Notes under the pieces: model-generated
What the model saw: the letters and a program-made list of their open reading frames with translations, nothing else
Told to the model about the DNA's origin: nothing
Databases searched by the model: none
Made by a program: the position numbers and the translations under genes
From: an uncultured Eubacteriales bacterium
GTDB lineage: Bacteria; Bacillota; Clostridia; Oscillospirales; Acutalibacteraceae
DNA length: 64,000 nt
Assembly: GCA_948941465.1 (NCBI GenBank)
Contig: CARATB010000002.1
Span: forward strand, 10,921-74,920
Reading direction: 5' to 3'
In this document: piece after piece, positions 12,921-37,861 of the stretch
Layout: the number at the start of each line of letters is the position of its first letter
How positions within the stretch are numbered: position 1 is the stretch's first letter

Positions 12921-15296
12921 ATGAATATTAAAAACAAAATAAACAGTGCTGTTCAGAAGCTGATTGACAAATTAAGCGGCAGCGGTGTTATGCAGGACGA
13001 GAACACCGTAAACGGAAAAAAATTCGTGTTCCCTGATATGCCTGAGGCTGCACTGAAGGCTGCCGAGGAAGGAACTGTTCTGTTAAAAAACAATGGTGCT
13101 TTACCCCTTAAAAAAGACGAAAGCATTGCGGTATTCGGCAGATGCCAGATAGATTATTTTTATGTGGGCTACGGCAGCGGCGGAGATGTTAATCAGCCAT
13201 ATGAGGTTAACCTGATTGACGGACTGAAGAACAATGGAGTAAAGCTGAATGAAAAGCTGCTGGGAGTATATAGCAACTGGTGCAAAAACAATCCGGTAAA
13301 CCACGGCTTCTGGGGGCACTGGCCGATGAACTATCCTGAAATGGAGCTTACCGACAGCCTTGTAAAAGATGCTGCAAAGGAAAGCAATACTGCAATCATT
13401 ATACTTGGCAGAGCTGCAGGAGAGGACAGAGAAAACAAGCTTGAAAAAGGCAGCTATTACCTTACTGACACTGAGATGAAAATGCTTGATCTTGTAACCT
13501 GTGCATTTAAAAAGATTGTTGTTGTTATGAACTGCGGTAATATCATTGATATGGAGTGGGTAAAAAAATACGGTGATAAAATAAACGCTATCGTTTACGC
13601 ATGGCAATGCGGTATGGAAAGCGGAAATGCCCTTGCAAATATACTGACAGGCAAAACAAACCCAAGCGGTAAGCTGACAGATACGATTGCCGTAAGCTAT
13701 AAGGACTACCCCAGCTCAAAGGATTTCGGAAATGCTGATTTCAACAACTACACTGAGGACATATTTGTTGGTTACAGATATTTTGAAACCTTTGACAAAT
13801 CAAAAGTGCTGTTCCCCTTCGGTTTCGGGCTAAGCTACACAGATTTTGAAATAACACCCGACAGATTTATATATGATGATAAAATAAAAATAACTATCAC
13901 TGTTAAAAACAGCGGTAATACAGCAGGTAAAGAGGTATTGCAGGTTTATGTATGCTGTCCTGACGGCAGGCTGAAAAAAGCTGAAAAAAGTCTTATTGCC
14001 TTTGCAAAAACCAGATGCCTTGCACCCAATGAATGTGAAAGCATTAATTTTGAAATCAAGCCTTATGACTTTGCATCATATGATGAGGACATCAGCTCAT
14101 ACATAACGGAAAAGGGTGAATATGCATTCTATATCGGGAACAATGTTAACACCGATTTATTGGCAGGCACTGTAGATTTAGATGAGCAGGTGCTTGAAAG
14201 GCTTCTTCCTGTATGTCCTGTACAAAATCCCTTTAAAATCATCACAGGTGAAACACTGAAAAATGGTAAGGCGGTTCTAAAAGAAAGGATTATTGAAAAT
14301 CTCCCCGCTGAAATCGGATTCAAGGGTGATCAGGGCTTTAAACTGTCTGATGTAAAAAACGGAAAAATTACTCTTGATGAATTTATTTCTCAGCTTACAA
14401 ACAAGGAGCTGGAGGCACTGACAAGAGGTCAGGGCAAAATGGACAGTGAGCTTGGTGTAATCGGCAATGCAGGTGCATTCTGCGGAATTATTCCTTCACT
14501 GCGTGACAAGGGTGTGCCACCTATCATTACAACTGACGGACCTGCAGGTGTGAGAATAAGAAAATACACCTCCCTTATCCCATGCGGCACTGCTCTTGCC
14601 TGCAGTTGGAACACCGCACTTGTGGAAAAACTGGCAGCCGTTATGGGTAATGAATTAAAATTCCACAAAAGTGATGTTCTTTTGGCACCCGGTATGAACA
14701 TTCACAGAAATGTACTCTGCGGCAGAAATTTTGAATATTTCAGCGAAGATCCCGTTGTTTCGGGAAAAATGGCTGCTGCCTTTGTCAGAGGTATTCAATC
14801 AGCAGGCGTATCTGCCTGCCCAAAGCATTTTGCCTGTAACAATCAGGAATTCAGGAGGACAAAAAACGACTCACGTCTTTCAGAAAGAGCCTTGAGAGAA
14901 ATATATCTGAAGGGCTTTGAAATCTGCGTTAAAGAATCAAATCCACTTAATATTATGACAAGCTACAACAAAATCAACGGCGTATGGAGTCATTACAACT
15001 ATGACCTTGTCACTACTGTGCTTCGCGGTGAGTGGGGCTACACAGGAAATGTTATGACTGACTGGTGGATGCAGAAATCACCATCACCTGAATTCCCCGA
15101 AATAAAGGATAATGCTTATCGTGTGAGAGCACAGGTAGATGTACTTATGCCCGGCGGTTTCAGACACATTGAAAAGAAATATAAATCAGACGGCTCACTG
15201 CTGAAAACACTCGGCAGACAAAACGGTATTACTCGAGGCGAGCTTGAACGCACTGCCAAAAATGTATTGGAGCTTGCCTTAAAAATTAAAATGTAA
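12921..15296 (+). CDS. glycoside hydrolase family 3 (beta-glucosidase-like) with reversed domain order
   Basis: The alpha/beta sandwich and Fn3-like part (NPSGKLTDT, FPFGFGLSYT) comes first. The TIM-barrel part (GRNFEYFSEDP, KHFACNNQE, SYNKINGVW, VMTDWW) comes last. Confidence 0.85.
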   Translation: MNIKNKINSAVQKLIDKLSGSGVMQDENTVNGKKFVFPDMPEAALKAAEEGTVLLKNNGALPLKKDESIAVFGRCQIDYFYVGYGSGGDVNQPYEVNLIDGLKNNGVKLNEKLLGVYSNWCKNNPVNHGFWGHWPMNYPEMELTDSLVKDAAKESNTAIIILGRAAGEDRENKLEKGSYYLTDTEMKMLDLVTCAFKKIVVVMNCGNIIDMEWVKKYGDKINAIVYAWQCGMESGNALANILTGKTNPSGKLTDTIAVSYKDYPSSKDFGNADFNNYTEDIFVGYRYFETFDKSKVLFPFGFGLSYTDFEITPDRFIYDDKIKITITVKNSGNTAGKEVLQVYVCCPDGRLKKAEKSLIAFAKTRCLAPNECESINFEIKPYDFASYDEDISSYITEKGEYAFYIGNNVNTDLLAGTVDLDEQVLERLLPVCPVQNPFKIITGETLKNGKAVLKERIIENLPAEIGFKGDQGFKLSDVKNGKITLDEFISQLTNKELEALTRGQGKMDSELGVIGNAGAFCGIIPSLRDKGVPPIITTDGPAGVRIRKYTSLIPCGTALACSWNTALVEKLAAVMGNELKFHKSDVLLAPGMNIHRNVLCGRNFEYFSEDPVVSGKMAAAFVRGIQSAGVSACPKHFACNNQEFRRTKNDSRLSERALREIYLKGFEICVKESNPLNIMTSYNKINGVWSHYNYDLVTTVLRGEWGYTGNVMTDWWMQKSPSPEFPEIKDNAYRVRAQVDVLMPGGFRHIEKKYKSDGSLLKTLGRQNGITRGELERTAKNVLELALKIKM

Positions 15297-16089: not shown

Positions 16090-16491
16090 GTGCAGGGATT
16101 TTTTTCTGCACAGAAAGCTGCAAGGCTTTCAAAATATCGGTTAGGAGATGATTATACGGCAAGAAAAAAGAAAATCACCCAGAAAGAGGTCAGTGAAGGC
16201 TTAAGACGTTTAGCCTTTGGTGAAATCCGGGATGCGGTATCACTGCTTTTTGAGAGCGAGGATGACATCATTGAAAAGCTGCCAAAACTTGATTTATTCA
16301 ACATAAGCGAAATCAAAAGAGTAAAGGGCGGAGGTATGGAAATCAAATTTTTCGACAGGCTCAAAGCTCTTGACAAGCTTGGTCAGGTTATCAGCACAAC
16401 TGACAAATCTCAGGCAAAGTCATTTTATGAGGCATTGGAAAACAGCACCGGCAAAGCTGAAAACGCATATGAGGGAAACAGCTATGAATAA
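16090..16491 (+). CDS. terminase small subunit, N-terminally truncated (Terminase_2-like C-terminal part)
   Basis: LRRLAFGEIRDAV...ISEIKRVKGGGMEIKFFDRLKALDKLGQ matches the conserved C-terminal half. The HTH N-terminal half is absent, and the in-frame upstream sequence is unrelated and closed by a stop at 16018. Confidence 0.55.
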   Translation: MQGFFSAQKAARLSKYRLGDDYTARKKKITQKEVSEGLRRLAFGEIRDAVSLLFESEDDIIEKLPKLDLFNISEIKRVKGGGMEIKFFDRLKALDKLGQVISTTDKSQAKSFYEALENSTGKAENAYEGNSYE

Positions 16492-17743
16492 ATTTGTTCC
16501 ATTTTCTCCCAAGCAGCTTGCAGTGCTCAACTGGTGGTGCAAAAGCAGCAAAATGAAAAATAAAAACGGAATCATATGCGACGGTGCAGTGCGAAGCGGA
16601 AAAACTCTTTGTATGAGTCTTTCATTCATATGCTGGGCATTTTACAGCTTCACGGACACCTCATTTGCCCTTTGCGGAAAAACAATTGCCTCACTAAGAA
16701 GAAATGTTGTAACGCCGCTTTTGCCGGTACTTACAGAGCTGGGCTTTATCTGTAATTACAAAATCAGCAGGAACTATCTTGAAATAACAAGACAGAATGT
16801 TACAAACAGATTTTATTTATTCGGCGGCAGGGATGAATCATCTGCATCACTTATTCAGGGTATGACCCTTGGGGGAATAATGCTTGATGAGGCTGCACTT
16901 ATGCCGCGTTCCTTTGTGGAGCAGGCACTGGCAAGGTGCTCACTTGAAAATGCAAAATACTTTTTCAACTGCAATCCTGAACACCCATACCACTGGTTCT
17001 ATATGGAATGGATAAAAAAATGTGATGAAAAAAATATGCTCTATCTTCATTTCACCATGGAGGACAACCCTTCACTTTCCAAAGCTGTCATCAACCGATA
17101 CAAAAATCTTTACTCAGGTGCCTTTTACGAACGCTTTGTAGAGGGCAAATGGGTAACAGCCGATGGTCTTGTTTACCCTATGTTCAGCTTTAACCGTCAC
17201 GTTAAAAGATGTGATGACAAATTCAGTGAATACTATCTATCCTGTGACTATGGAACTGTCAATCCCTTTTCTTTGGGATTATGGGGCAGGAGCAGTGACG
17301 GATGGTACAGAATTGATGAATACTATCACTCCAGCCGTGACATGGGAGTTCAGCTTACAGACGAGGAATATTATACTCAGCTTGAAAAGCTGGCAGACGG
17401 TAAAAGGATTACGGCACTTATTATTGACCCTTCGGCGGCATCATTTATTCAGACTGTCAGACGGCACGGAAAATTCACAGTAATCAAGGCAGAAAATGAT
17501 GTACTGACAGGTATTAACAGGGTTTGTCAGGCTCTGAAAAATGATGAAATATTCTTTTATCCGAATTGCGGTGACACACTGAGAGAATTTTCAATTTACC
17601 GCTGGGACAGCAGCATAAAAAGAGATGCCCCGAAAAAAGAAAATGACCATGCAATGGACGACATTCGATACTTTGTTTCAACTGTACTGAAAACGGAACA
17701 AAAAAGCGAAAGCCTTGTAACCATTGCGGTAGAAAGGAATTAG
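16484..17743 (+). CDS. terminase large subunit (PBSX family)
   Basis: Contains Walker A DGAVRSGKT, Walker B MLDEAAL and the C-terminal nuclease motif DHAMDDIRY. The ATG at 16484 overlaps the terS stop (ATGAATAA). Confidence 0.9.
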   Translation: MNKFVPFSPKQLAVLNWWCKSSKMKNKNGIICDGAVRSGKTLCMSLSFICWAFYSFTDTSFALCGKTIASLRRNVVTPLLPVLTELGFICNYKISRNYLEITRQNVTNRFYLFGGRDESSASLIQGMTLGGIMLDEAALMPRSFVEQALARCSLENAKYFFNCNPEHPYHWFYMEWIKKCDEKNMLYLHFTMEDNPSLSKAVINRYKNLYSGAFYERFVEGKWVTADGLVYPMFSFNRHVKRCDDKFSEYYLSCDYGTVNPFSLGLWGRSSDGWYRIDEYYHSSRDMGVQLTDEEYYTQLEKLADGKRITALIIDPSAASFIQTVRRHGKFTVIKAENDVLTGINRVCQALKNDEIFFYPNCGDTLREFSIYRWDSSIKRDAPKKENDHAMDDIRYFVSTVLKTEQKSESLVTIAVERN

Positions 17744-17746
17744 GCT

Positions 17747-18868
17747 TTGGGCGTATTCAATTTAAAGAAAAAGAAAGAGAGCGCACTGTCAGCAGGAGCA
17801 GTCCAAACATCAGCAATGTCAAAGCACCCGTATTATAATCTTGGCACTTATATGCCTATGAACAGTATGTCAAGAGTGTATCAGGAATTAAGGCAAGCCG
17901 TACCGATAATTGATTCAGCTATTCATAAAATCATAAGACTGACAGGCGGTTTTCATTTTGAAACGGGAAATGACACACTTGATTTACAGATTAACAGCTA
18001 TTTTGACAGCATAAACGTAGGCGGAAACCAACAGGGGCTGTCGGCATTCATTTCAAATTACTTAAACCAGCTTTTAACCTTCGGCACTGCCATTGGTGAG
18101 ATTGTACTGAATGACAGCGGTATTTATGCCCTTTACAACAGTGAGCTTGAAAGCATTGAGCTGAAAAGAAGCAACAATGGTATTGACATTGATTTCTATA
18201 ACAACAGAGATAAAATTGTCAATCCGCAGCTTATTTTATATTCAGTTCTTAACCCTAAACCAAGAGATTTATGCGGAACGAGCCTGCTTGAAGGTTTACC
18301 ATTTATCAGCGATATACTGATGAAGATTTACAACACCATAGGTCAGAACTGGGAACATGCAGGCAACATAAGATATGCTGTTGTGTGCAGACCGGGAAGC
18401 AATGATACCGACAACACAGATGCCCAGGCAAAAGCGACAGCAATTGCCGATGCCTGGCAGGAAGCTATGAACGCACAAAAAGTAAAGGATTTTGTAGCTG
18501 TTGGTGATGTGAGCATAGAGGTAATCGGTGCAGACAACAAAATACTGAACAGTGAAATACCTGTAAGACAGCTTCTTGAACAGATTGTTGCAAAAACAGG
18601 ACTGCCGCCGTTTATGCTTGGACTTAGCTGGTCGTCAACAGAAAGAATGAGCACACAACAGGCGGATATTCTTACAACCGAGCTTGAGACATACCGCAGA
18701 ATACTCACACCGATTATCAAAAAAATAGGAAATATTTACCTTGCAGTTAACGGAATCGGCAGTAATCTGAATATCATTTGGGATGACATAACACTGCAGG
18801 ATCAGTGCGAAAGCGCAAGAGCAGAGCTTTATCTTGCGCAGGCTGAAAAAATAAGGAGGGAGGTTTGA
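17747..18868 (+). CDS. phage portal protein
   Basis: Lies immediately after terL. 373 aa with a general portal-like pattern. TTG start with an AAAGGA RBS. Confidence 0.65.
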   Translation: MGVFNLKKKKESALSAGAVQTSAMSKHPYYNLGTYMPMNSMSRVYQELRQAVPIIDSAIHKIIRLTGGFHFETGNDTLDLQINSYFDSINVGGNQQGLSAFISNYLNQLLTFGTAIGEIVLNDSGIYALYNSELESIELKRSNNGIDIDFYNNRDKIVNPQLILYSVLNPKPRDLCGTSLLEGLPFISDILMKIYNTIGQNWEHAGNIRYAVVCRPGSNDTDNTDAQAKATAIADAWQEAMNAQKVKDFVAVGDVSIEVIGADNKILNSEIPVRQLLEQIVAKTGLPPFMLGLSWSSTERMSTQQADILTTELETYRRILTPIIKKIGNIYLAVNGIGSNLNIIWDDITLQDQCESARAELYLAQAEKIRREV

Positions 18869-18869
18869 T

Positions 18870-19826
18870 ATGACACAGGGTTATATTGAAAAAAGTATCG
18901 GCACATCAAATAGTGATTTGGATAAAATCAATCAATTTACAAGAAGTCAATTCGGTTCGGACGAGCTTTACATTTTCAGCGTAATACTCTGCAACAATGA
19001 CATTGACAGAGATTATGAAAGATTTTCACTGAATGCGCTCAACTCACTTAAGGATTTATTTGTTGGCAAAACAGGAATTTTTGACCATTCAATGAAAGCC
19101 GCTAACCAGAAAGCAAGGATTTTTGAAACAGAGCTGGAGGAGGTTTATGACAAAAAGACTGCTGATGGTATGAAATTTTACCAACTGAGGGCAAAAGCAT
19201 ACATGGTGAAAAGTGACGAAAACAAACCACTTATCACCGAGATTGAGGCCGGAATAAAAAAAGAGGTTTCAATCTCCTGCTCTGCAAAATCAAGCACCTG
19301 TTCAATCTGCGGCAAGGACAAAAGACACGGCTTATGTGAGCATATTAACGGAAAAATCTATGACGACAAAACTGCTTTTTCCGTTCTTGATAACATAAGC
19401 GATGCATACGAATTCAGTTTTGTTGCAGTCCCTGCACAGAGAGAAGCAGGAGTGACAAAGCACTTTAATATTGAAGGAGAGAAAACAGACATGACATCAA
19501 TTATGAAAAGTCTTAAAAGCTGTGACAGTGAAATTGTATTGACAAAAGCACAGGCAAACAGTTTGATTTCAGAGCTTGAAGAGCTTAATACGGAAGCCGA
19601 GCTTGGCAGAGAATACAAAAGCTCGCTCACAAAGGAGGTTATCACCCTTTGCACGAAAGCAATGCCGGATATGGATATAAATACCTTCGGCAGTGTTGCA
19701 CAAGTTATGACAACAAAGGAGCTTTTGGCATTCAAAAAGGCATTTAAAAAATCTGCAGACAGCACAGTCTGCCTGCAGCTTAATACAGAAAAATCAAACA
19801 AAAGCGTAAATCAATTTAAAATTTAG
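18870..19826 (+). CDS. prohead protease / scaffold protein (XkdF-like)
   Basis: Lies between the portal and major capsid genes. N-terminal DRDYERFS..GKTGIFDHS region, then a coiled-coil-like C-terminal half typical of a fused scaffold. Confidence 0.5.
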   Translation: MTQGYIEKSIGTSNSDLDKINQFTRSQFGSDELYIFSVILCNNDIDRDYERFSLNALNSLKDLFVGKTGIFDHSMKAANQKARIFETELEEVYDKKTADGMKFYQLRAKAYMVKSDENKPLITEIEAGIKKEVSISCSAKSSTCSICGKDKRHGLCEHINGKIYDDKTAFSVLDNISDAYEFSFVAVPAQREAGVTKHFNIEGEKTDMTSIMKSLKSCDSEIVLTKAQANSLISELEELNTEAELGREYKSSLTKEVITLCTKAMPDMDINTFGSVAQVMTTKELLAFKKAFKKSADSTVCLQLNTEKSNKSVNQFKI

Positions 19827-19840
19827 GAGGATTAACAATT

Positions 19841-20836
19841 ATGGCATTCGACAACATCAGACTTGAAAAAAGCTTATACACTACAGGCAAATCATTCACA
19901 GCGGCATTGGAGGAGCTTGACCCCTCTGAAAACTACAGAGGCACCTCTCTTGAAGGACTTGATGCATATGAAAGACAGCTTAAAAGATTCGACATCAAGG
20001 TTTCGGGGGCTGAGTCAGACCCTGTATCAAAATTCTTCAAAACAAATGAGTCTTCTGCATTGTTCCCTGAATATGTATCAAGAGCAGTAAGAACAGGACT
20101 TGATTACAATGATTCAGTTGAAGAAATAATTGCATCGACAACTGAAATTGACAGTATGGATTATCGTTCTGTAATGACACAGTTAAATCTTGATGACTTT
20201 GAGCTTAATTACCTTGAAGAAGGACAGAGTCTTCCTGAATTCACAGTTAATCTGAGCGAAAAGCTTACTAAGCTTAAAAAGCATGGTAAAATGCTTGTTG
20301 CATCCTACGAGGCAATTAAATTCCAGAAGCTTGACCTCTTCACAACTGTTTTAAAACAGATTGGTGATTTCATAGCAAAAAGTGAATTTTATCAGGCAAT
20401 TGAAACAATCGGAGCTGAAAACAATATAAATGCAATTCAGTCAACCAACACAAGCCTGACATTCGGCGATCTTCTGGATTTATGGGAAAGCTGTAATCAG
20501 TTTAATATGACGACGCTTATGGTCAGCAAAAAGACTCTGAGAGATATTCTTGCCATGCCTGAGTTCAGGGATGCAAATGCAGGACTTGATTTCCATGCAA
20601 CAGGCAATATAGCCACTCCCTTCGGTGCAAAGATCATTGTGTCAACCGCCATTGATGACAACACTGTTTGTGCAATGGACAAAAACTATGCTCTTGAAAA
20701 GGTACAGACAGGCGGAATCACTACAGAATTTGACAAGCTGATTGACAGACAGCTTGAACGTGCAACTATTTCAACAATCACAGGCTTTTCTGTCATTTAC
20801 AGTGATGCAATCAAAATTCTGACACTGACTAACTAA
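19841..20836 (+). CDS. major capsid protein
   Basis: 331 aa in the capsid position with a strong AGGAGG RBS. Assignment rests on position and size. Confidence 0.65.
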   Translation: MAFDNIRLEKSLYTTGKSFTAALEELDPSENYRGTSLEGLDAYERQLKRFDIKVSGAESDPVSKFFKTNESSALFPEYVSRAVRTGLDYNDSVEEIIASTTEIDSMDYRSVMTQLNLDDFELNYLEEGQSLPEFTVNLSEKLTKLKKHGKMLVASYEAIKFQKLDLFTTVLKQIGDFIAKSEFYQAIETIGAENNINAIQSTNTSLTFGDLLDLWESCNQFNMTTLMVSKKTLRDILAMPEFRDANAGLDFHATGNIATPFGAKIIVSTAIDDNTVCAMDKNYALEKVQTGGITTEFDKLIDRQLERATISTITGFSVIYSDAIKILTLTN

Positions 20837-20848
20837 GGACGGTGCAAT

Positions 20849-21199
20849 ATGGCAAATATCAATACTGTCATTAAAGAGCTCTCCGTATTGCTTGGAATTG
20901 ATGAAGAAGATACAGTAAAATACAGCAGCATAACTGAAAATGCAGTAAAAAGCATAGAACAGCTTTTAAAAAATGACGAAAGCATTCAGAACAATCGTAT
21001 TGTTTACCTTTGCGCAGTTAAGGCATTTTATCGTATTGTCCTTTCAGAAAAGGATGATATATGCTCTTTCTCAGCAGGTGACATATCCTATTCAAAAAAT
21101 TCGTCTGCTATTGAGAATGCAGAAAAGCTTTTGAAAGATGCATTTAAGGATTGCCGTGATCTGCTTAAAGATACGGTCTTTGCTTTTAAGGTGGTGTAA
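20849..21199 (+). CDS. head-tail connector protein
   Basis: 116 aa directly after the capsid gene, the gp6-like position. Confidence 0.45.
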   Translation: MANINTVIKELSVLLGIDEEDTVKYSSITENAVKSIEQLLKNDESIQNNRIVYLCAVKAFYRIVLSEKDDICSFSAGDISYSKNSSAIENAEKLLKDAFKDCRDLLKDTVFAFKVV

Positions 21200-21200
21200 T

Positions 21201-21551
21201 ATGAACACACGGCACATTATACAAAAAGAAATCGAAAATTTAGGAGCAACAGTTATTATAACTGACGGAGAATGGAGTTCTGTACCATTTAAAGCAATAC
21301 TCCGTCCTCTATGGCGAAAGAAAAGCTCGAATTTTGAAAAAAAGCTCACCGAGCTTGGCGGCAGTCTTATGGAATATTATCAGTACATAGGTTCAGCCAA
21401 TCATTCCATCACTGATTTAACAGAGGATGCACTGCTTATCTTTGACGGTGAAAGCTATGAATTCAAGCACCGTGACAAGGTCATTGCAAATAATCAAGTA
21501 CTATTTTACACCGGAATCCTCAGAAAGCTGAAGGGTGACGACAATGATTAA
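21201..21551 (+). CDS. head closure / head-tail adaptor protein
   Basis: The ATG at 21201 follows the upstream stop by 1 nt. Size and position fit. The track start at 21138 lies inside the previous gene. Confidence 0.4.
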   Translation: MNTRHIIQKEIENLGATVIITDGEWSSVPFKAILRPLWRKKSSNFEKKLTELGGSLMEYYQYIGSANHSITDLTEDALLIFDGESYEFKHRDKVIANNQVLFYTGILRKLKGDDND

Positions 21552-21942
21552 TACCGAAAAAATTGTTGACGAGCTGATTAACAGTATCGGAAACATAGAA
21601 AATGCAAAAATTATCAGAGCATATCCGAACAAAGATAAACCTACAAAAATAACAAAAGCCTATATAGCCATCAAAATCAAAGAAATAAAGCTGGAGCCAT
21701 ATCAGATTGACTATCCATACAAAGCAGGTGAATTAACCGTATCGGCAGATTTATTCTGCCCCCTGAAATGGGACAGCAGTGAGCTTACAAAGCTTTTTTC
21801 AAAGCTGTGCACCGCTGTTGAAAAATACAACATCACTTCAATATCAGCAGAAAACATAACCGCTGATACGAACACACAGGCGTATATGTTAAAAACTTCC
21901 ATAACCTTTTATAACAAATTTGATTTTGGAGGTGACGAGTAA
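21544..21942 (+). CDS. tail completion / neck protein (DUF3168-like)
   Basis: 132 aa. Overlaps the upstream gene and is the last gene of the head-completion block. Confidence 0.4.
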   Translation: MINTEKIVDELINSIGNIENAKIIRAYPNKDKPTKITKAYIAIKIKEIKLEPYQIDYPYKAGELTVSADLFCPLKWDSSELTKLFSKLCTAVEKYNITSISAENITADTNTQAYMLKTSITFYNKFDFGGDE

Positions 21943-22034
21943 TGGATCATGATTCAATCAATTCGGCAGAAAGATTAAGTGAAATAATCAGGCTTGACCA
22001 GAAACGATATGACAAAAGCTCAGGAGGTAATTAA
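21942..22034 (+). CDS. 30-aa hypothetical ORF at the head/baseplate junction
   Basis: Own translation: MDHDSINSAERLSEIIRLDQKRYDKSSGGN. TAATG overlap with the upstream stop. It is below the track size cut-off. Confidence 0.25.
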   Translation: MDHDSINSAERLSEIIRLDQKRYDKSSGGN

Positions 22035-22040
22035 AATAAA

Positions 22041-22553
22041 ATGAAAATGAAATTCAAGGATTTTACGTTCCCGTCAAATCCAAGAGAAATAGAAATTAAT
22101 ATCTCCTCCAACATTCAGTCAAAAGGAATTTACGGCGGCAGCAGTGCAACAGAAAATATTTCTGTAAACCCTATTATAATCAGTGGCAAGGGTGAATTTT
22201 TTGATGATCATGCAGAGGAACTGTGTCTTTACCTTCAGCATATGCTGAAAGATAAAACTGCGGGGGAGCTTATGCTCCCCTCTTCTGCGGGACTTAATGC
22301 ATTTCTGACAGAATTTACATATTCAAAAAACTGCAGAAAAGGCAGCATAGAATATAATTTTGTATTCACTGAAAGCTGCAGCAAAACATATAGCAAAAGA
22401 AAAACAAATTACACAATTGCAGAAAAAAATGAAAATGCCTTTGAGATTGCAGGCAGATGTAATATCTCGGTCAGTGATATTATGAATTTAAATAATTTCC
22501 CGACCCCATTCAGTATAAACGAAGGTGACAGGGTGGTGCTTTATGATAATTGA
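22041..22553 (+). CDS. LysM-domain phage tail/baseplate hub protein (XkdP-like; N-terminus resembles Mu gp43)
   Basis: C-terminal FEIAGRCNISVSDIMNLNNF..INEGDRVVL is a LysM domain. The N-terminal FKDFTFPSNP...GELMLP pattern resembles the DNA-circulation N-terminal domain. Confidence 0.55.
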   Translation: MKMKFKDFTFPSNPREIEINISSNIQSKGIYGGSSATENISVNPIIISGKGEFFDDHAEELCLYLQHMLKDKTAGELMLPSSAGLNAFLTEFTYSKNCRKGSIEYNFVFTESCSKTYSKRKTNYTIAEKNENAFEIAGRCNISVSDIMNLNNFPTPFSINEGDRVVLYDN

Positions 22554-23490
22554 ATTGACAACTGTAGACGGCAAAAAAATTACTGTCGATAAATTCACCG
22601 AGCTTTGCTTTACCCAGACCGCAGGAGTAGCCTGTGACAGTCTGTGGACAACATTTATATCAGACAATTGTATTGATGATATAGACAGTGTAAAGCTTTA
22701 CATTAATTATAAGCTTGTATTCAGCGGACTTTGCGACTGTCAGAAAAGCACATATGATACCAACGGATTTGAAATATACTTTTATGCCCGTTCAACAGCC
22801 TGCATACTTGTTGATAATGAGGCTGAGCCTTACACATATCAACACCCAAGTGCAAAGCAGCTATGCTTTTCACTGGCTGAGGGACTGGGATTTTCAAACA
22901 GTCTGCCTGATATCAGCAGCACAAACCAATATGAAATCACCAAAGGGACATCACGCTACGGCGCAATCAGTCAATTTGTTTCGCTGTTAACAGGAAAGTA
23001 TATTAACATTACACCGAAAAATGACATTGAATTAATATCAGAAAGCAGTGAAATAAAAAGCCTTAATGATTATGATATTTTGTCACTGACAGAAACCATT
23101 AACCGCAGCGAGCCCTTGTCACAGATTCAGTTTAAGCAAACCTCTTCTCAGGAGAAATATAATCTGCACACAAAATCAATGCTTTGTGACAGGCTTGGTA
23201 TTAACAGAACAAAATTTATTAACCTGAATTCCCTGCCCCGATGGCAAAGAGATAATACCGTGCTTCTTCAGTTGAAAAACTCCTTTGAAAATTACAGAAT
23301 ACTTGAGGCAAATGTACACGGCTATGCTGATGAACCATTGCTCCGGCGTTTCAACTGCATCACCAATCACAAAAGCTACAATGATTATATTTTAACAGAA
23401 CGTAAATTCATCTGTACTGAAAAAGGAACTGTAACAAAGCTAACATTAAAAAAGCAAATTGATATTAAGGAGATTACATATGTGGATTAG
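22543..23490 (+). CDS. baseplate hub protein (XkdQ / late-control gpD-like)
   Basis: 316 aa, positioned after the LysM protein as in PBSX. The ATG at 22543 overlaps the upstream stop. Confidence 0.5.
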   Translation: MIIELTTVDGKKITVDKFTELCFTQTAGVACDSLWTTFISDNCIDDIDSVKLYINYKLVFSGLCDCQKSTYDTNGFEIYFYARSTACILVDNEAEPYTYQHPSAKQLCFSLAEGLGFSNSLPDISSTNQYEITKGTSRYGAISQFVSLLTGKYINITPKNDIELISESSEIKSLNDYDILSLTETINRSEPLSQIQFKQTSSQEKYNLHTKSMLCDRLGINRTKFINLNSLPRWQRDNTVLLQLKNSFENYRILEANVHGYADEPLLRRFNCITNHKSYNDYILTERKFICTEKGTVTKLTLKKQIDIKEITYVD

Positions 23491-23836
23491 CAAACAGATT
23501 GTTAAAGAAAGCAGTGAGCCATATGCACAAACAGGCAAGAGCACACTTAATAACAATGGCAGTGTTGAAGCAGTTTCATCAGGTGTTAACAGAGATCTGA
23601 AATTAGTTTCTCCCTACGGATACAGCTTTTCACTGCCTGCAGGGACAGGGCTTCTGTTAATGAAGGCTGACGGCAGTCAGCTTGGTATAGGAGTACCTGC
23701 AAATGACAGCAGTCTTAAAACAGGCGAAATAAAAATCACTTCAAAATCAGGAGCATTTATTCACCTGCGTGATGACGGCAGTATCAGCCTTAACGGCTTA
23801 ATTATTAATAATAACGGGGTGATTGACAGTGACTGA
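23480..23836 (+). CDS. baseplate spike/assembly protein (gpV / XkdR-like)
   Basis: 118 aa with a beta-rich GEIKITSKSGAFIHLRDDGSISLNG motif. Overlaps its neighbours. Confidence 0.4.
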   Translation: MWISKQIVKESSEPYAQTGKSTLNNNGSVEAVSSGVNRDLKLVSPYGYSFSLPAGTGLLLMKADGSQLGIGVPANDSSLKTGEIKITSKSGAFIHLRDDGSISLNGLIINNNGVIDSD

Positions 23837-24092
23837 ACAGATTATTAAAGATTGTATTTCTGCTTTAGCCTGCCCATTGGGTCAGTTTTATCCTGACAAA
23901 AACTACGGCAGCAGACTGAACGGACAAGCTGATATTAACAGCCTGCTTTGTGCAGCAAGGCTTGCTGTCAATAACATAAACGGTGTATATATAAAAAACG
24001 GAAAAACAGAGGATAATACGCTGATATTATCCGTCATAATTAATGAAAACGAGGAAAGGACAGTGATTATTGACCTTGATGAGAGCATATGA
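23823..24092 (+). CDS. baseplate wedge protein (gpW/gp25 / XkdS-like)
   Basis: 89 aa directly upstream of the baseplate J gene. Confidence 0.4.
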   Translation: MTVTEQIIKDCISALACPLGQFYPDKNYGSRLNGQADINSLLCAARLAVNNINGVYIKNGKTEDNTLILSVIINENEERTVIIDLDESI

Positions 24093-25149
24093 GGAAATTC
24101 TAAGCAGAATGAAAAATGCGTATTTCAATGAATGCGGCGAGGCAGTTGAAAAGAATTCAAAAACAGAAAAAAGGCTTGAAATTCTGGCAAGTGAGCTGTT
24201 TTCAATATCCTGCTATGGTGATTATATTTTCAGGCAGGCTTTTGTACAGACTGCCACAGGTGATAACCTTGACAAGCTCGGAGAGCTCAGAGGATGCATC
24301 AGAAAAAAGAAGGATTATGCGCACGGCGAACTTTATTTCACAATAAACGAGGCAGTCGACTATGATATTGAGATACCTCAGAATACAGTCTGCTCCGTGT
24401 CAGGCAAGCCTTTTCTCCAATTTTCCGTTACTGACTCTGCAGTTATTCCGGCAGGTGAAACAGGCGTAAGTGTTCCTGCGAAAGCGATTGACTGCGGAAA
24501 CGATTATAATGCTGATGCCGGAACAGTTACAGTAATGGTTAATGCACCTATCGGCGTTGCAGCAGTGACAAACCCTGCCGATTTTGATGGCGGCTATGAT
24601 GGAGAAAGCGACCTTGCGTACAGAGACAGAATACTCCGCCGCTTTGATGTTTTGCCAAATCAGCTTAACACAACATCAATTGAAAACAATATTCTCACCC
24701 TTGATTATATAACTGACTGCAATGTTCCATTTTCAGACACTGCCAACAGAATAACTGTTTTTGTATCTACTAAGGACAATGAACTGACAGCACAGCAGAT
24801 AACAGAAATCAGGGATAAAATTGCCATCGGCAAAATTGCGGCAATCACACGCAACGTAAATCTTGCAAAAAAGAAAAAATACACCTTGACCATTGAAATA
24901 TTCTGTATGAAAGGCTTTGATAAAGACGAAATTACAGAGCTTGTAACAAACCGAGTTAATAATATGGTTTCCGCACTCAGAATAGGTCAGACACTTTCGC
25001 TAAAGGATATTTCAAAATCCATGTCGGATATTGACGGCATCGTTGACCATAATATTTATTCTGACAAGGCAGAGGGTAATTTTATTTACTGCAAAAGTGA
25101 CAAAATACTTCATTTAAAAAGTCTGGCGGTGAACTGCTTTGATGAATGA
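24079..25149 (+). CDS. baseplate J-like protein (XkdT-like)
   Basis: About 356 aa. The pattern ...TATGDNLDKLGELRG..R....A.G.. is typical of baseplate J. Confidence 0.7.
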   Translation: MRAYEEILSRMKNAYFNECGEAVEKNSKTEKRLEILASELFSISCYGDYIFRQAFVQTATGDNLDKLGELRGCIRKKKDYAHGELYFTINEAVDYDIEIPQNTVCSVSGKPFLQFSVTDSAVIPAGETGVSVPAKAIDCGNDYNADAGTVTVMVNAPIGVAAVTNPADFDGGYDGESDLAYRDRILRRFDVLPNQLNTTSIENNILTLDYITDCNVPFSDTANRITVFVSTKDNELTAQQITEIRDKIAIGKIAAITRNVNLAKKKKYTLTIEIFCMKGFDKDEITELVTNRVNNMVSALRIGQTLSLKDISKSMSDIDGIVDHNIYSDKAEGNFIYCKSDKILHLKSLAVNCFDE

Positions 25150-25702
25150 TATTGAAAAGAGAATTATAAAGCTTGCCGATTTAATCAGCATCGCAACTGA
25201 AGATAACAGCCGAGAACTTGCAGAGCTGAAAGGCTATGCAGAAGGCATTAAATTAATTTTAAGTGACCTTGAAAAAACAGCTTTGCAGTTATCACCTGAA
25301 ACAGCAGAGGATATGGCACTCGGTCTTTTCTGCGATATGATGGGTATTGATTATACACTAAGTGACAGTGAAAAAAGAGAGCTGATAAAAAAAGGTTTTT
25401 TAATGGACGGCATTCATTACGCAAACGGTGAATTTGAAGAAAAACTGGCATCCGCACATTTTAACGCTCAGCTTTCTGCAGGCACACTCACTCTTTCAAA
25501 CGCAGCAGAACCAACGGCAGAAGATTTTAAAAAGCTTGCAGATATTATGAAAAACTATGCTTCACCAAATCTTTTTATCACATTTGAAGGTGACGGAATA
25601 ACATTTGAAAAATGGGATGCATTTGACTTTATGTTTGATGAATATGACAAGCTGAATTACCCATTTTCAATGCTTGACACAATTAAAACGGAGGAAATAT
25701 GA
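25139..25702 (+). CDS. phage tail protein XkdU/YmfQ-like (DUF2313)
   Basis: 187 aa, positioned after baseplate J. Contains the SPETAEDMALGLFCDMMGI motif. Confidence 0.6.
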   Translation: MMNDIEKRIIKLADLISIATEDNSRELAELKGYAEGIKLILSDLEKTALQLSPETAEDMALGLFCDMMGIDYTLSDSEKRELIKKGFLMDGIHYANGEFEEKLASAHFNAQLSAGTLTLSNAAEPTAEDFKKLADIMKNYASPNLFITFEGDGITFEKWDAFDFMFDEYDKLNYPFSMLDTIKTEEI

Positions 25703-26181
25703 GCAGTACGAATAAAACAGAGGTTTTAAGGTTAAATCAGTGGATAAGCTCCGATAAACCAAAGCGTGAGGACTTCAACTATGACAATCAGGTAATTGAA
25801 AATAATTTTAATTACCACACAAGCGACAAATTCATCCACATTACACAGGGTGAAAGAGAAAACTGGAATCTGTTTTCATACAGCGGAATGTATTACGGCA
25901 ACGGTAATATTGAAAGAACTATTGATACGGGATGCCCCTTTGAAGTGTCCTTTGCAGTGGTATTTGCCAATAACAGACCGCTGGCTGTAACCAGATTTTC
26001 AGATTCAAAAAATCATAATTATATGGCATTTGCAGGCAAGCTTGCCAACAGCACAGGTATTAAGCTGAAAAATAATGGCAAACAGCTGACTGTCAGTCAA
26101 AGTGCAACTGCCGTACTCAATAACGAGTATATGAACCTGAATGAAGCAGGTGTAGCTTATTGTTATGTAATGTTCAGGTAA
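25699..26181 (+). CDS. short tail-fibre-like protein
   Basis: The N-terminal LRLNQWISSDKPKREDFNYDNQVIE motif is common at the N-terminus of Firmicute phage tail fibres. At 160 aa it is unusually short. Confidence 0.45.
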   Translation: MSSTNKTEVLRLNQWISSDKPKREDFNYDNQVIENNFNYHTSDKFIHITQGERENWNLFSYSGMYYGNGNIERTIDTGCPFEVSFAVVFANNRPLAVTRFSDSKNHNYMAFAGKLANSTGIKLKNNGKQLTVSQSATAVLNNEYMNLNEAGVAYCYVMFR

Positions 26182-36560: not shown

Positions 36561-37097
36561 ATGGCAAAGAAGTATTTTTGTCCCGTTTGCGGCTATGAAA
36601 GTGACGAGCCAATTGAAATCTGCCCTGTTTGCGGCGTAAAAATGCAGGAGAGAAAGGACGATGTAACTGCTTGGGCTGCTGAGCATCAGGTAGGTATTAT
36701 CGACGGCGTAAGCGAGGAAATCGTTCAGGGTCTTCGTGATAACTTCAACGGCGAGTGCAGTGAGGTTGGTATGTACCTTGCAATGGCAAGAGTAGCTTTC
36801 AGAGAGGGCTATCCTGAAATCGGTCTTTACTGGGAAAAGGCAGCTTATGAAGAGGCTGAGCATGCTGCAAAGTTTGCTGAAATGCTTGGCGAAGTTGTAA
36901 CAAACTCAACAAAGAAAAATCTTGAAATGCGTGCTGCAGCAGAAAACGGTGCTACACTCGGCAAAACAGAGCTTGCAAAGCTTGCAAAGGCTGCAGGTCT
37001 TGATGCTATCCACGACTCAGTGCATGAGATGGCAAGAGATGAGGCAAGACATGGTAAGGCATTTGAAGGTCTTCTCAAGAGATATTTTGCTGACTAA
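36561..37097 (+). CDS. rbr: reverse rubrerythrin (N-terminal rubredoxin-like domain plus C-terminal di-iron four-helix bundle)
   Basis: [16 protein letters not shown] at the N-terminus. [10 protein letters not shown]...EEAEHAAKF...DEARHGKAF are the ExxH di-iron motifs. Confidence 0.9.
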
Positions 37098-37692
37098 TTC
37101 AATAATGTTAATGGGTACGGTTGCTGAACCGTACCTTTTTTTGCCTCATCTCTTGCCAAGCCTATCCAAATTTTGAAATCGTAGATTGATAAAATTTGGG
37201 AGAAAAGGTCCGGGGGACCTTTTCGTAGAGGGTTGCACATCGGACCGAGGCAAGACACGGTAAGGTATATCCAAGTTGCTACAAAACAGTCCACAGGACT
37301 GTTTTTCCCAAATCATAGATTTGGAGCAACGGTCTCTTGCACTTCGTGCAATTCACTCTTCTCAAGAGATATTTTGCTGACTAATTCAATAATGTTAATG
37401 GGTACGGTTGCTGAACCGTACCTTTTTTTGCCTCATCTCTTGCCAAGCCTATCCAAATTTTGAAATCGTAGATTGATAAAATTTGGGAGAAAAGGTCCGG
37501 GGGACCTTTTCGTAGAGGGTTGCACATCGGACCGAGGCAAGACACGGTAAGGTATATCCAAGTTGCTACAAAACAGTCCACAGGACTGTTTTTCCCAAAT
37601 CATAGATTTGGAGCAACGGTCTCTTGCACTTCGTGCAATTCACTCTTCTCAAGAGATATTTTGCTGACTAATTCAATAATGTTAATGGGTAC
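37070..37692 (+). repeat. exact 287-bp tandem repeat, 2 full units plus a 49-bp partial third unit, beginning inside the rbr 3' end
   Basis: Units 37070-37356 and 37357-37643 read as identical. The third copy, 37644-37692, is identical for 49 bp. The ORF track shows identical ORFs offset by 287 bp. Confidence 0.95.
37113..37142 (+). terminator. intrinsic terminator, repeat-unit version (second copy at 37400-37429)
   Basis: GGTACGGT-TGCTGA-ACCGTACC followed by T7. Confidence 0.8.
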
Positions 37693-37715
37693 AGCTTTTA
37701 TGCTGTACCCTTTTT
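37687..37715 (+). terminator. intrinsic terminator, distal (presumably native) version after the third repeat copy
   Basis: GGGTACAGC-TTTTAT-GCTGTACCC followed by T5. Confidence 0.8.
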
Positions 37716-37776
37716 ATTTTACATAGACCAATACTTTAACGAATTATGAATTTTTAGTAATATTTAGAAAAAACTA

Positions 37777-37809
37777 TTGACAAAACTGAAAAATGGATAT
37801 ACTATAAAT
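37777..37809 (+). promoter_or_regulatory. sigma-A promoter of the hrcA-grpE-dnaK(-dnaJ) operon
   Basis: TTGACA at 37777-37782, with TACTAT / TATAAA about 17 nt downstream, immediately before CIRCE. Confidence 0.6.
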
Positions 37810-37815
37810 ACAGAG

Positions 37816-37842
37816 TTAGCACTCGGATAGTGAGAGTGCTAA
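37816..37842. promoter_or_regulatory. CIRCE operator (HrcA binding site)
   Basis: TTAGCACTC-GGATAGTGA-GAGTGCTAA is an exact match to the CIRCE consensus TTAGCACTC-N9-GAGTGCTAA. Confidence 0.95.
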
Positions 37843-37861
37843 CAGATAAATTTCAAAAGAG

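What the first reader, a model, noticed from the sequence alone, without database searches (positions are those of the whole stretch)
37070..37692. Exact 287-bp tandem units fused to the rubrerythrin 3' end, bracketed by 49-bp att-like repeats
Reading base by base, 37070-37356 and 37357-37643 are identical. A third copy of the first 49 bp follows at 37644-37692. The ORF track shows the same thing independently, with identical 66-aa ORFs at 37094 and 37381 offset by 287 bp.

The shared 49-bp segment is the last 25 coding nt of rbr, its stop codon, and the spacer up to the 5' arm (GGGTAC) of the terminator. After copies 1 and 2 the hairpin continues as GGTTGCTGAACCGTACC-T7. After copy 3 it continues as a different hairpin, AGCTTTTATGCTGTACCC-T5.

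The layout is therefore DR-core-DR-core-DR. The gene 3' end is regenerated at every junction, and a distinct, presumably native, terminator half appears only at the far end. That is what tandem site-specific integration into a gene 3' end looks like when the element carries a replacement 3' end. However, the cargo is only 238 bp, it has no ORF, there is no recombinase in the window, and I see no terminal inverted repeats or target-site duplication.

Zero mismatches between the units means the event is very recent or the array is actively homogenised. I do not recognise this as any described element class.
Basis: partly seen in the sequence, partly recalled or inferred. Interest (0 to 1): 0.8.

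Follow-up and report, generated by a model that had tools for sequence, protein, structure and literature searches.

The report
Tiny integrative element repeated after rubrerythrin
The exact 287-bp repeat after the rubrerythrin gene is real, and it is an amplified copy of a gene-less mini-element that carries two copies of a conserved folded motif, absent from Rfam, which recurs at the 3' ends of tRNA and housekeeping genes in many gut Clostridia.

Summary
Window 37070-37356 equals 37357-37643, and a third 49-bp copy follows.

- Closely related strains have empty sites, one simple 208-bp unit, or 1, 2 or 3 units of 287 bp, plus hybrid arrays. The insert is therefore a dispensable, polymorphic element that duplicates the rbr 3' end.
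- The native terminator is hairpin A, not B.
- The att-like junction lies upstream at GAGGCAA (37041-37047).
- The 287-bp period fits unequal homologous exchange between the 49-72-bp repeats better than two site-specific integrations.
- A described class does exist: gene-less, att-flanked "microCIMEs" of 130-220 bp.

The new part is the cargo. Each unit holds two oppositely oriented copies of a roughly 65-90-nt three-way-junction motif. It has covarying stems, has no Rfam match, and occurs in more than 128 metagenomic and viral loci.

In its short form the motif follows a rule. Directly 5' of it lies 16-20 nt antisense to the target gene. A sense copy from a short shared core to the gene end starts a fixed 16-18 nt 3' of it. 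Targets include six tRNAs, rbr, gyrB, rpsI and argJ.

How the element moves, and what the motif does, remain unknown.

The parts
36561..37097 (+). rubrerythrin (reverse rubrerythrin, named 'NADH peroxidase' by sources), the target gene
   Evidence: ORF. Pfam Rubrerythrin/RUBY_RBDX and source names.
37030..37047 (+). Target segment L+core inside rbr. It is the exact complement of the antisense arm a'. The core GAGGCAA is 37041-37047.
   Evidence: (I5).
37070..37118 (+). Repeat copy 1 (rbr last 25 nt, stop codon, spacer, GGGTAC). Copies 2 and 3 are at 37357-37405 and 37644-37692.
37113..37143 (+). Terminator hairpin A plus T run, the native rbr terminator. A second copy is at 37400-37430.
   Evidence: It is the same hairpin in the empty sites L129-L132, L280 and L281.
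37141..37158 (+). Antisense arm a' (TTGCCTCATCTCTTGCCA), the reverse complement of rbr 37030-37047. A second copy is at 37428-37445.
   Evidence: Family rule.
37157..37236 (+). Three-way-junction motif, short type, plus strand. A second copy is at 37444-37523.
   Evidence: Covariance model R1: 70.6 bits, E 1.8e-20. P3 carries two compensatory changes relative to the family.
37237..37268 (+). Linker (ACATCGGACC) followed by the sense copy of rbr 37041-37062 (GAGGCAAGACACGGTAAGGTAT). A second copy is at 37524-37555.
   Evidence: (D3). In L279 and L002 this copy runs uninterrupted to the stop codon and terminator.
37269..37356 (-). Second motif, long type with the 5' hairpin GTGAATTGCACGAAGTGCAAGAGAC, on the minus strand. 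It replaces 7 nt (TTGAAGG) of the distal rbr copy. A second copy is at 37556-37643.
   Evidence: R1: 67.4 bits, E 2e-19 at 37271-37333. Nearest relatives are L186 and L196. It is absent from the simple unit of L279.
37687..37715 (+). Terminator hairpin B plus T run, at the position of the native terminator.
   Evidence: L001 and L007 carry an A-type hairpin here.
37777..37843 (+). hrcA promoter-like site and CIRCE operator. This is the right-hand neighbour and is not part of the element.

Best explanation
The locus holds a gene-less miniature integrative element of the CIME/microCIME kind, lodged at the 3' end of rbr.

Basic unit. The basic unit is 206-208 bp. In order it reads: core + rbr 3' end + terminator A, then an 18-nt arm antisense to rbr just left of the core, then a three-way-junction motif, then a 10-12-nt linker. 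After the unit come the core and the rbr 3' end again.

Later changes in this lineage. A second copy of the motif, of the long type and in inverted orientation, was inserted into the distal rbr copy. That made the distance between the 49-72-bp repeats 287 bp.

Origin of the tandem array. The exact tandem of 287-bp units in the window then arose recently by unequal homologous recombination, or replication slippage, between those repeats. It did not arise by a second site-specific integration.

Shown:
- the anatomy of the unit;
- empty, single and multi-copy alleles;
- membership in a widespread family with a conserved, covarying motif and target-derived arms.

Inferred:
- the founding insertion used a recombinase supplied in trans, probably a tyrosine integrase of a prophage or ICE with the same target;
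- the unit spreads between strains mainly with flanking DNA by homologous recombination.

The role of the motif and of the antisense arm is not established.
For: Exact repeat.

Population series in one species, by spacer between rbr and hrcA:
- 199 bp, empty (L280, L281);
- 407 bp, one simple unit (L279);
- about 485 bp, one 287-type unit (L001, L003, L005, L006, L274, L276-L278);
- 774 bp, two units (window, L004, L008);
- 1060 bp, three units (L275);
- 979 bp, a 206-bp unit plus two 287-bp units (L002);
- an internal 207-bp deletion (L007).

Copies within arrays differ by SNPs in mosaic patterns. That indicates real arrays and recurrent exchange.

The sister lineage (L129-L132) has rbr, hairpin A and no element.

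L279 is identical to the empty-site strain L280 over 2.4 kb upstream. Its distal rbr copy and the first roughly 115 bp downstream carry alleles of another strain type.

Family evidence:
- A 27-base degenerate pattern taken from the core hits 8 IMG/VR contigs, and a 21-base version hits at least 120 metagenome contigs.
- The consensus structure is supported by covariation: 12 pairs with changes on both sides, score 0.186 against 0.071 in shuffles (0/500) and 0.02-0.07 in slid controls.
- Model R1 finds exactly the four copies in the window.
- Arm rule: 23 of 42 distinct short-type copies have 14 or more of 16 antisense matches upstream, against 1 and 0 in the two controls. In 13 of these the sense copy starts in register with an overlap of -1 to 6 nt (examples).
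- 42 of 134 copies lie less than 400 nt downstream of a tRNA gene on the same strand.
- Tyrosine integrase-like ORFs (assigned from their N-terminal sequences) sit next to units in L146, L147, L149 and L151, and a serine recombinase-like ORF in L146 and L150. One integrase-like cluster recurs beside the motif in 8 loci.

The class is described in the literature as microCIMEs: 130-220 bp, no genes, at the 3' ends of rpsI, rpmG, fda and rplL, and found in tandem with ICEs or IMEs (PMC7563491).
Against: - No integrase specific for the rbr 3' end was found. None lies in the 64-kb window or near the other rbr-associated units (L156).
- MicroCIMEs are described as decayed remnants. A motif kept almost invariant across many hosts and targets, placed in fixed register with an antisense arm, is not what random decay predicts.
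- In L279 the distal copy, not the proximal one, carries the foreign alleles. This fits import by homologous recombination. It gives no support to integrase action in that event.
- Excision circles, transcripts and activity were not observable with these tools.
Confidence: 0.6

Rival explanations
1. The unit is a self-targeting element programmed by nucleic acid. The transcript, or a single-stranded DNA form, made of antisense arm, motif, linker and sense arm reads both strands of the target on either side of the core. This is the same topology as the target-binding loop of an IS110 bridge RNA, or as a 5' guide plus scaffold. It would direct a trans-encoded enzyme (or its own catalysis) to insert the unit there.
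For: - The motif is nearly invariant while the arms are rewritten for each target, in fixed register. The antisense arm abuts P1, and the sense copy starts 16-18 nt after GUAG.
- Orthologous sites in rbr and gyrB of different species carry arms that match the local sequence at synonymous positions (L156 against the window; L154 against L186).
- The antisense arm does not pair with the linker (tRNA-Met and window units, read). It is therefore free to pair elsewhere.
- No recombinase is encoded in cis, apart from integrases in 8 loci.
- A 206-bp unit that requires exchange at the 22-nt core copy exists in L002.
Against: - No partner protein was identified.
- The arms decay in some copies: 15/16 in several tRNA-Asn units and 3 mismatches in L284.
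- Long-type copies show no antisense rule (0 of 27).
- The folded strand could not be determined: G.U against A.C is 11:11 overall and 3:0 in P2.
- The sense arm often runs to the end of the gene or terminator, which fits an att-type repeat equally well.
Confidence: 0.2
2. The motif and the antisense arm are an RNA-level device of integrative elements. In transcripts that read through the restored gene's terminator, the arm pairs with the gene's own 3' region and the junction motif follows. Together these would process, terminate or destabilise read-through RNA and so insulate the element or neighbouring genes. Mobility would come entirely from ordinary integrases and homologous recombination.
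For: - In every short-type unit checked, the arm is co-oriented with the target gene and lies just after its terminator.
- The predicted fold of 37020-37720 pairs rbr 37030-37047 with the arm around hairpin A. The region folds far better than shuffles (z -10.4; core alone z -5.8).
- P3 resembles a bidirectional terminator hairpin.
Against: - Such a duplex would cut or trap the host gene's own coding region or tRNA T-arm.
- Long-type copies sit in REP-like palindromes with no gene upstream.
- There are no expression data.
Confidence: 0.12
3. There is no element. The region is a local complex rearrangement of the rbr 3' UTR (duplication plus inverted template switch), and the tandem copies are either an assembly expansion or plain slippage.
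For: - Pieces of rbr occur in both orientations in the core.
- The sister lineage already has TTTTGCCT after hairpin A, a possible microhomology.
- Identical units cannot be counted from short reads, and L272 and L273 have N gaps in the array.
Against: - The non-rbr part of the core is a motif found in at least 128 unrelated loci with the same flank architecture at other genes.
- Arrays with SNP-marked copies exist.
- Empty and filled alleles coexist in near-identical strains.
Confidence: 0.06

Closest known systems
CIME / microCIME (cis-mobilizable elements of Firmicutes; PMC7563491)
   Same: Both are gene-less and 130-220 bp in size class. Both are bracketed by direct repeats made of the 3' end of a conserved gene or tRNA gene, so the gene stays intact. 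Both are found in tandem with each other and next to integrase-bearing elements. rpsI is a shared target (L184).
   Different: MicroCIMEs are described as decayed leftovers with no defined content. Here the content is a conserved, covarying three-way-junction motif with an antisense arm in fixed register. It is shared across elements with at least 12 different targets. No cognate ICE, IME or prophage was found for the rbr site.
IS110/IS1111 bridge (seek) RNA, target-binding loop
   Same: The topology is the same: a 5' segment complementary to the top strand left of a short core, then a structured spacer, then a 3' segment identical to the top strand from the core rightwards. Long-type copies sit in REP-like palindromes, a classic IS110 target.
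   Different: There is no DEDD transposase next to any copy and no second (donor) loop. The arms are 16-20 nt or longer rather than about 4-9 nt. The sense arm continues to the end of the gene. This comparison rests on my knowledge of the published bridge RNA.
Integrative elements that carry a replacement 3' end (phage/ICE att sites in tRNA and gene 3' ends)
   Same: The gene 3' end is duplicated. The two copies differ at synonymous sites (L232 argJ, L251, L279). The core coincides with the junction used by neighbouring integrase-bearing prophages (L149, L147).
   Different: The unit is hundreds of times smaller and encodes nothing. It also carries an inverted copy of the sequence left of the core, which att sites do not need.
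MITEs and REP/BIME- or BOX-type intergenic repeats
   Same: All are short, non-coding, strongly folding and multi-copy across genomes, with modular arrays that vary between strains.
   Different: There are no terminal inverted repeats and no short target-site duplication. The position is gene-specific rather than dispersed. No further copy occurs in the 64-kb window.
Guide-plus-scaffold RNAs with a 5' guide (IscB omega RNA, Cas9 sgRNA)
   Same: A 16-20-nt variable segment complementary to a DNA or RNA target sits directly 5' of a conserved folded scaffold.
   Different: No effector gene is nearby. The scaffold is much smaller than an omega RNA. There is no Rfam HEARO match.

Membership tests
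CIME / microCIME | Flanked by direct repeats (att-like) formed by the 3' end of the target gene, with the gene left intact | tested here: met
   The 49-72-bp repeat occurs 3 times in the window. A roughly 115-bp repeat flanks the simple unit of L279. The rbr ORF is intact.
CIME / microCIME | No integrase, relaxase or other genes inside; size 130-220 bp for microCIMEs | tested here: met
   Units are 206-208 bp (simple) or 287 bp (with the second motif). Their ORFs are not conserved. The size range is from PMC7563491.
CIME / microCIME | Shares its att site with a cognate ICE, IME or prophage, and occurs in accretion with one | tested here: inconclusive
   For tRNA-Pro and tRNA-Met units, integrase-bearing prophage ends abut the units at the same core. 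For rbr, no integrase lies in the window or in L156.
CIME / microCIME | Excised and integrated by the cognate integrase (cis-mobilisation) | not testable with these tools
   This needs circle-junction PCR or reads, or genetics.
Simple tandem duplication by unequal homologous exchange | The period equals the distance between pre-existing direct repeats, copy number is polymorphic, and SNPs are mosaic between copies | tested here: met
   One-unit alleles already carry the repeat 287 bp apart. Alleles with 1, 2 and 3 units and mosaic SNPs exist.
IS110 bridge RNA | Encoded in the non-coding end of an element with a DEDD (RuvC-like) transposase | tested here: not met
   No recurrent neighbouring ORF other than tyrosine integrase-like ORFs in 8 loci. 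No such ORF in the unit.
IS110 bridge RNA | Two internal loops, one for the target and one for the donor | tested here: not met
   Only one pair of target-derived arms flanks a three-way junction.
MITE | Terminal inverted repeats and a short target-site duplication | tested here: not met
   The ends are an antisense arm and a sense arm of the target. The repeat is 49-115 bp of gene sequence.
Diversity-generating retroelement (TR/VR at a gene 3' end) | A reverse transcriptase nearby, and a template repeat differing from the gene copy mainly at adenines | tested here: not met
   No reverse transcriptase was noticed among the ORFs of the locus (not scanned against Pfam). The repeats are identical or differ at C/T and G/A sites.
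Folded single-strand att sites (integron attC, CTX-phi attP) | Two inverted arms pair to rebuild a duplex recombination site | tested here: not met
   The antisense arm pairs with the downstream copy only over the 4-7-nt core. The linker is not complementary to it in the tRNA-Met and window units (read).
Any Rfam 15 family | A covariance-model match | tested here: not met
   Nothing relevant at E<=10 on the window region, nor at E<=0.5 or gathering thresholds on family loci.

The most novel reading that the evidence does not exclude
The three-way-junction motif with its antisense and sense arms is the working part of a new kind of programmable mobile element in gut Clostridia. In this reading, a small RNA or single-stranded DNA specifies its own insertion site at the 3' end of tRNA and housekeeping genes by base pairing with both strands around a short core. 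It would use an enzyme encoded elsewhere, or its own chemistry. MicroCIME-like units such as the one after rbr would then be active products rather than decayed remnants.
Probability: 0.2. Interest if true: 0.95.

Novelty: new variant of a known kind. Interest (0 to 1): 0.7.

Why it matters
Att-flanked mini-elements are usually dismissed as debris of ICEs and prophages. Here the "debris" carries a conserved, covarying structured motif. That motif is absent from Rfam 15 and from the searched literature, and it is common in human-gut metagenomes. It is always framed by sequences copied from the target in a fixed geometry.

Either it is a still-unknown accessory of integrative elements (an insulator, a processing site or a transfer signal), or it is a guide-like device for site choice.

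Both readings are testable with RNA-seq, circle-junction assays and co-occurrence profiling. The second reading would add a new programmable DNA-insertion system.

Locally, the array changes the spacing and the number of terminators between an oxidative-stress gene and the hrcA-grpE-dnaK heat-shock operon. It is also a strain-typing marker.

Tried and rejected
- The single genome-contig scan was wasted on AAAAGGTCCGGGGGACCTTTT. This is a generic terminator hairpin (Streptococcus, Rhodobacterales and others). None of L009-L128 holds more of the core. Other copies in the same genome could therefore not be sought beyond the 64-kb window.
- Rfam in three modes found nothing.
- Coding potential of the 66-aa and 56-aa ORFs was rejected because of frameshifts in other strains.
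- DGR, group II intron, retron and integron attC readings were rejected. No reverse transcriptase was noticed at the locus, the repeat differences do not fit, and the arms do not pair.
- Clustering of ORFs within 2.5 kb of 134 motif copies gave no recurrent recombinase except tyrosine integrase-like ORFs in 8 loci.
- The phage and plasmid collections gave one hit, MT838325.1. It is a bacterial contig, not a phage. There were no plasmid hits.
- Literature searches for the motif sequence and for RNA-guided or oriT-mimic mini-elements found nothing matching.
- The attempt to assign the folded strand from G.U against A.C counts was inconclusive.
- A first automated search for the antisense arm was confounded by palindromic terminators. 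It was redone with a fixed 16-nt window and controls.
- The idea that the proximal rbr copy of L279 is the imported one was rejected. The distal copy and its downstream flank carry the foreign alleles.
Full report
**1. Observation**

The region was read directly.
- Tandem Repeats Finder reports a single array at 37070-37692 with period 287, 2.2 copies, 100% matches and no indels.
- A direct comparison confirms that 37070-37356 equals 37357-37643. The third copy is exact for 49 nt and then diverges, and the repeat does not extend leftwards.
- The 49 nt are the last 25 coding bases of a 178-aa rubrerythrin (36561-37097), its stop codon, and the spacer up to GGGTAC.
- Copies 1 and 2 continue into hairpin A plus a T run. 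Copy 3 continues into hairpin B plus a T run.
- The gene order is gltX/glnS (minus strand), DUF4250, a Fur/PerR-like gene, rbr, the array, the hrcA promoter with CIRCE, then hrcA-grpE-dnaK-dnaJ.

**2.

The 238-bp core is not featureless.
- It contains an exact 18-nt inverted copy of rbr 37030-37047 at 37141-37158, directly after the T run of hairpin A.
- It contains a 22-nt direct copy of rbr 37041-37062 at 37247-37268.
- It contains a 35-nt imperfect inverted repeat at 37194-37228 / 37279-37313.
- The core folds much better than shuffled sequence, with z -5.8 on the plus strand and z -4.5 on the minus strand.
- Rfam gives nothing.

**3. Population data**

Looking up contigs that encode exactly this Rbr, this HrcA and a 99%-identical Rbr gave 28 loci of the same or a very close species, which sources name "Eubacterium sp." MAGs. 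The rbr-hrcA spacer takes discrete sizes.

| Spacer | State | Loci |
|---|---|---|
| 199 bp | empty | L280, L281 |
| 407 bp | one simple 208-bp unit | L279 |
| about 485 bp | one 287-type unit | L001, L003, L005, L006, L274, L276-L278 |
| 774 bp | two units | window, L004, L008 |
| 1060 bp | three units | L275 |
| 979 bp | a 206-bp unit followed by two 287-bp units | L002 |
| 279 bp | one unit with a 207-bp internal deletion | L007 |

- In multi-copy strains the copies differ by SNPs arranged as mosaics. The arrays are therefore real and exchange sequence.
- L272, which has the same sequence type as the window, and L273 have runs of N inside the array. Assemblers struggle here, and the count of exactly two in the window is not secure.
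- A sister lineage with 97%-identical Rbr (L129-L132) and more distant relatives (L133-L143) lack the element altogether.

**4.

- Every empty site shows rbr followed by hairpin A (GGGTACGGTTGTAA(A/T)ACCGTACC) and then TTTTTTATTTTA. Hairpin A is therefore native. B occupies the native position as a variant, and L001 and L007 have an A-type hairpin there.
- The simple unit of L279 shows the primary architecture: rbr (L-core-R), terminator, antisense arm, motif, linker, core-R, terminator. A roughly 115-bp repeat runs from GAGGCAAGAC to the end of the T run.
- In the window's lineage a second element copy sits in the distal rbr copy, where it replaces TTGAAGG.
- The 287-bp period is the distance between the two c-plus-hairpin repeats created in this way. 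Exchange at the core gives 206 bp instead, as seen once in L002.
- The exact duplication in the window is therefore best explained by unequal homologous recombination or slippage between 49-72-bp repeats.

**5. L279 as a test of "imported 3' end"**

The two rbr 3' copies of L279 differ at three synonymous sites.
- Upstream, L279 is identical to the empty-site strain L280 over 2.4 kb.
- The distal copy and the first roughly 115 bp downstream carry alleles of the L282 type.
- By +317 bp the sequence is again of the L280/L281 type.

In this instance the unit came in with flanking DNA by homologous recombination. It was not acquired by integration at the core of an L280-type chromosome.

**6. A family**

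- A degenerate pattern built from the two arms of the 35-nt inverted repeat (27 fixed bases) hit 8 IMG/VR contigs.
- In the window the pattern matches only the four expected places, against zero in shuffles.
- Aligning 33 diverse copies gives a three-way junction:
  - P1 is variable.
  - P2 is CUCCAAAU...AUUUGG(N)AG, with a distal part of 4-40 nt.
  - P3 is AAACAGUCC-GGN-GGACUGUUU.
  - The junction strand is CGUAG.
- Pair counting gave 87.8% standard pairs and 12 pairs with changes on both sides. These comprise all 7 pairs of P1, 3 pairs in the distal part of P2, and 2 pairs in P3, the last contributed by the window's plus-strand copy. The covariation score was 0.186, against 0.071 in shuffles (0 of 500 reached it) and 0.02-0.07 in slid controls.
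- A covariance model built from this alignment finds exactly four copies in the 64-kb window: plus strand 37157-37236 and 37444-37523, minus strand 37271-37333 and 37558-37620, each at E about 1e-19 to 1e-20. It finds none in element-free relatives.
- A "long" form has an extra 5' hairpin (GAGTGAATTGCACGCAGTGCAAGAGAC). The window's minus-strand copy is of this form, and its nearest relatives are L186 and L196.
- No Rfam family matches canonical members.
- The motif sequence is not found in the searched literature.

**7. The flank rule**

In short-type copies the following holds.
- The 16-20 nt immediately 5' of P1 are the reverse complement of the adjacent gene just left of a short core.
- A sense copy running from the core to the gene's end starts 16-18 nt after GUAG.
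- Both arms share the core of 3-9 nt.

With a fixed 16-nt window, 23 of 42 distinct short-type copies have 14 or more of 16 antisense matches within 380 nt upstream. The forward-orientation and reversed controls give 1 and 0. In 13 of these the sense copy is also found in register.

Targets seen:
- tRNA-Asn, tRNA-Pro (two anticodons), tRNA-Arg, tRNA-Met and tRNA-Val. Of 134 copies, 42 lie less than 400 nt downstream of a tRNA gene.
- rbr in at least two other lineages with different motif subtypes (L156/L257, L266).
- gyrB in two species at the same codon position, with arms matching each host (L154, L186).
- rpsI (L184), argJ (L232), a serC-like gene (L251) and another gene (L260).
- Gene names for the protein-coding targets are my reading of their C-terminal translations. 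They are not database hits.

Further observations:
- Units are often tandem (L145, L146, L148).
- In L147 the local sequence left of the core differs from the arm beyond 12 nt. The arm therefore travels with the unit and is not made at insertion.
- Long-type copies lie in REP-like palindromes and show no antisense rule (0 of 27).

**8. Partners**

- ORFs within 2.5 kb of the 134 copies share no recurrent protein apart from tyrosine integrase-like ORFs in 8 loci. A large serine recombinase-like ORF abuts the units in L146 and L150. These assignments rest on my reading of the N-terminal sequences.
- Where a prophage end abuts a unit (L149, L147), the phage-host junction falls at the same core as the unit's arms. 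This is what accretion of elements using one att site would give.
- The window has no homologue of these recombinases and no tRNA gene.

**9. Comparison with known classes**

- The closest described class is the CIME, and specifically the "microCIMEs" of Streptococcus salivarius. These are 130-220 bp, carry no genes, are bracketed by att repeats at the 3' ends of rpsI, rpmG, fda and rplL, and lie in tandem with ICEs or IMEs. They are interpreted as the most decayed remnants (PMC7563491).
- The rbr unit meets the structural criteria. The link to a cognate integrase is untested for rbr.
- What is not described is the conserved structured motif and the antisense arm in fixed register.
- In topology this resembles the target-binding loop of IS110 bridge RNAs, or a 5' guide plus scaffold. 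The defining features of those families (an adjacent DEDD transposase, a second loop, an effector gene) were tested and not met.

**10. Verdict**

- The repeat is real.
- The "tandem site-specific integration" reading is right about the nature of the insert: an integrative-type mini-element that regenerates the gene end.
- It is wrong about how the two exact copies arose, and wrong about which terminator is native.
- The unit is a new variant of a known kind.
- The underlying motif family is the interesting part and deserves follow-up.
- I could not establish how it moves or what the motif does. I give about 0.2 to a guide-like, programmable mechanism.

Noticed in passing
window 16427-26181: A roughly 10-kb phage-like head/tail gene cluster with no integrase: terminase-like, portal-like, capsid and baseplate genes, and a tail-fibre-like ORF starting 'MSSTNKTE...'. 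Homologous clusters lie beside tRNA-Pro and motif units in IMG/VR loci L144-L151. It may be a defective prophage or a GTA-like cluster.
   Followed up: partly
L282 about 600-900; L283 about 1395-1465: In strains with the 99%-identical Rbr, other insertions begin exactly after the stem of the rbr terminator (CCGTACC|TCAGC...). The roughly 300-bp insert of L282 is bracketed by a 23-bp repeat of the terminator hairpin and contains a REP-like palindrome. The terminator is thus a hot spot for a second, unrelated kind of insertion.
   Followed up: no
L184 (oriented) about 2800-2915: In the rpsI-associated unit, the sense copy of the gene end is interrupted 15 nt after the core by an unrelated roughly 115-nt insert. 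This is the same position class as the inverted second motif in the window.
   Followed up: no
L266 1-1192: A 1.2-kb contig in which roughly 130 nt of rbr 3' end plus both motifs lie between a glycoside-hydrolase-like fragment and the 3' end of a glgA-like gene. Either the contig is chimeric, or the whole structure has moved to another locus.
   Followed up: no
L175, L153, L157, L162 and similar loci; L285 1780-1900: Long-type motif copies sit in the loops of REP-like palindromes (GTAGGGTGCGAT...ATCGCACCCTAC) in high-GC gut Clostridia contigs that are full of GTAGGGGCGG...CCGCCCCTAC repeats. MT838325.1, labelled 'Bacteriophage sp.', is such a bacterial contig.
   Followed up: partly
L189 about 670-760; L160 about 14380-14450: Next to canonical units lie divergent or truncated motif copies with their own antisense tRNA T-arm pieces, for example GGGATTCGAACACGAG...GGGAGAAAGGTCCAGTGGACCTTTCAATGC. 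The family is therefore broader than the search pattern used.
   Followed up: no
one search hit list (P0022, P0035, P0039, P0045, P0050, P0102, P0118): Some close Rbr homologues are 215-241 aa instead of 177-179 aa. They may be extended or fused forms. I did not check whether the extension is C-terminal and related to insertions at the gene end.
   Followed up: no
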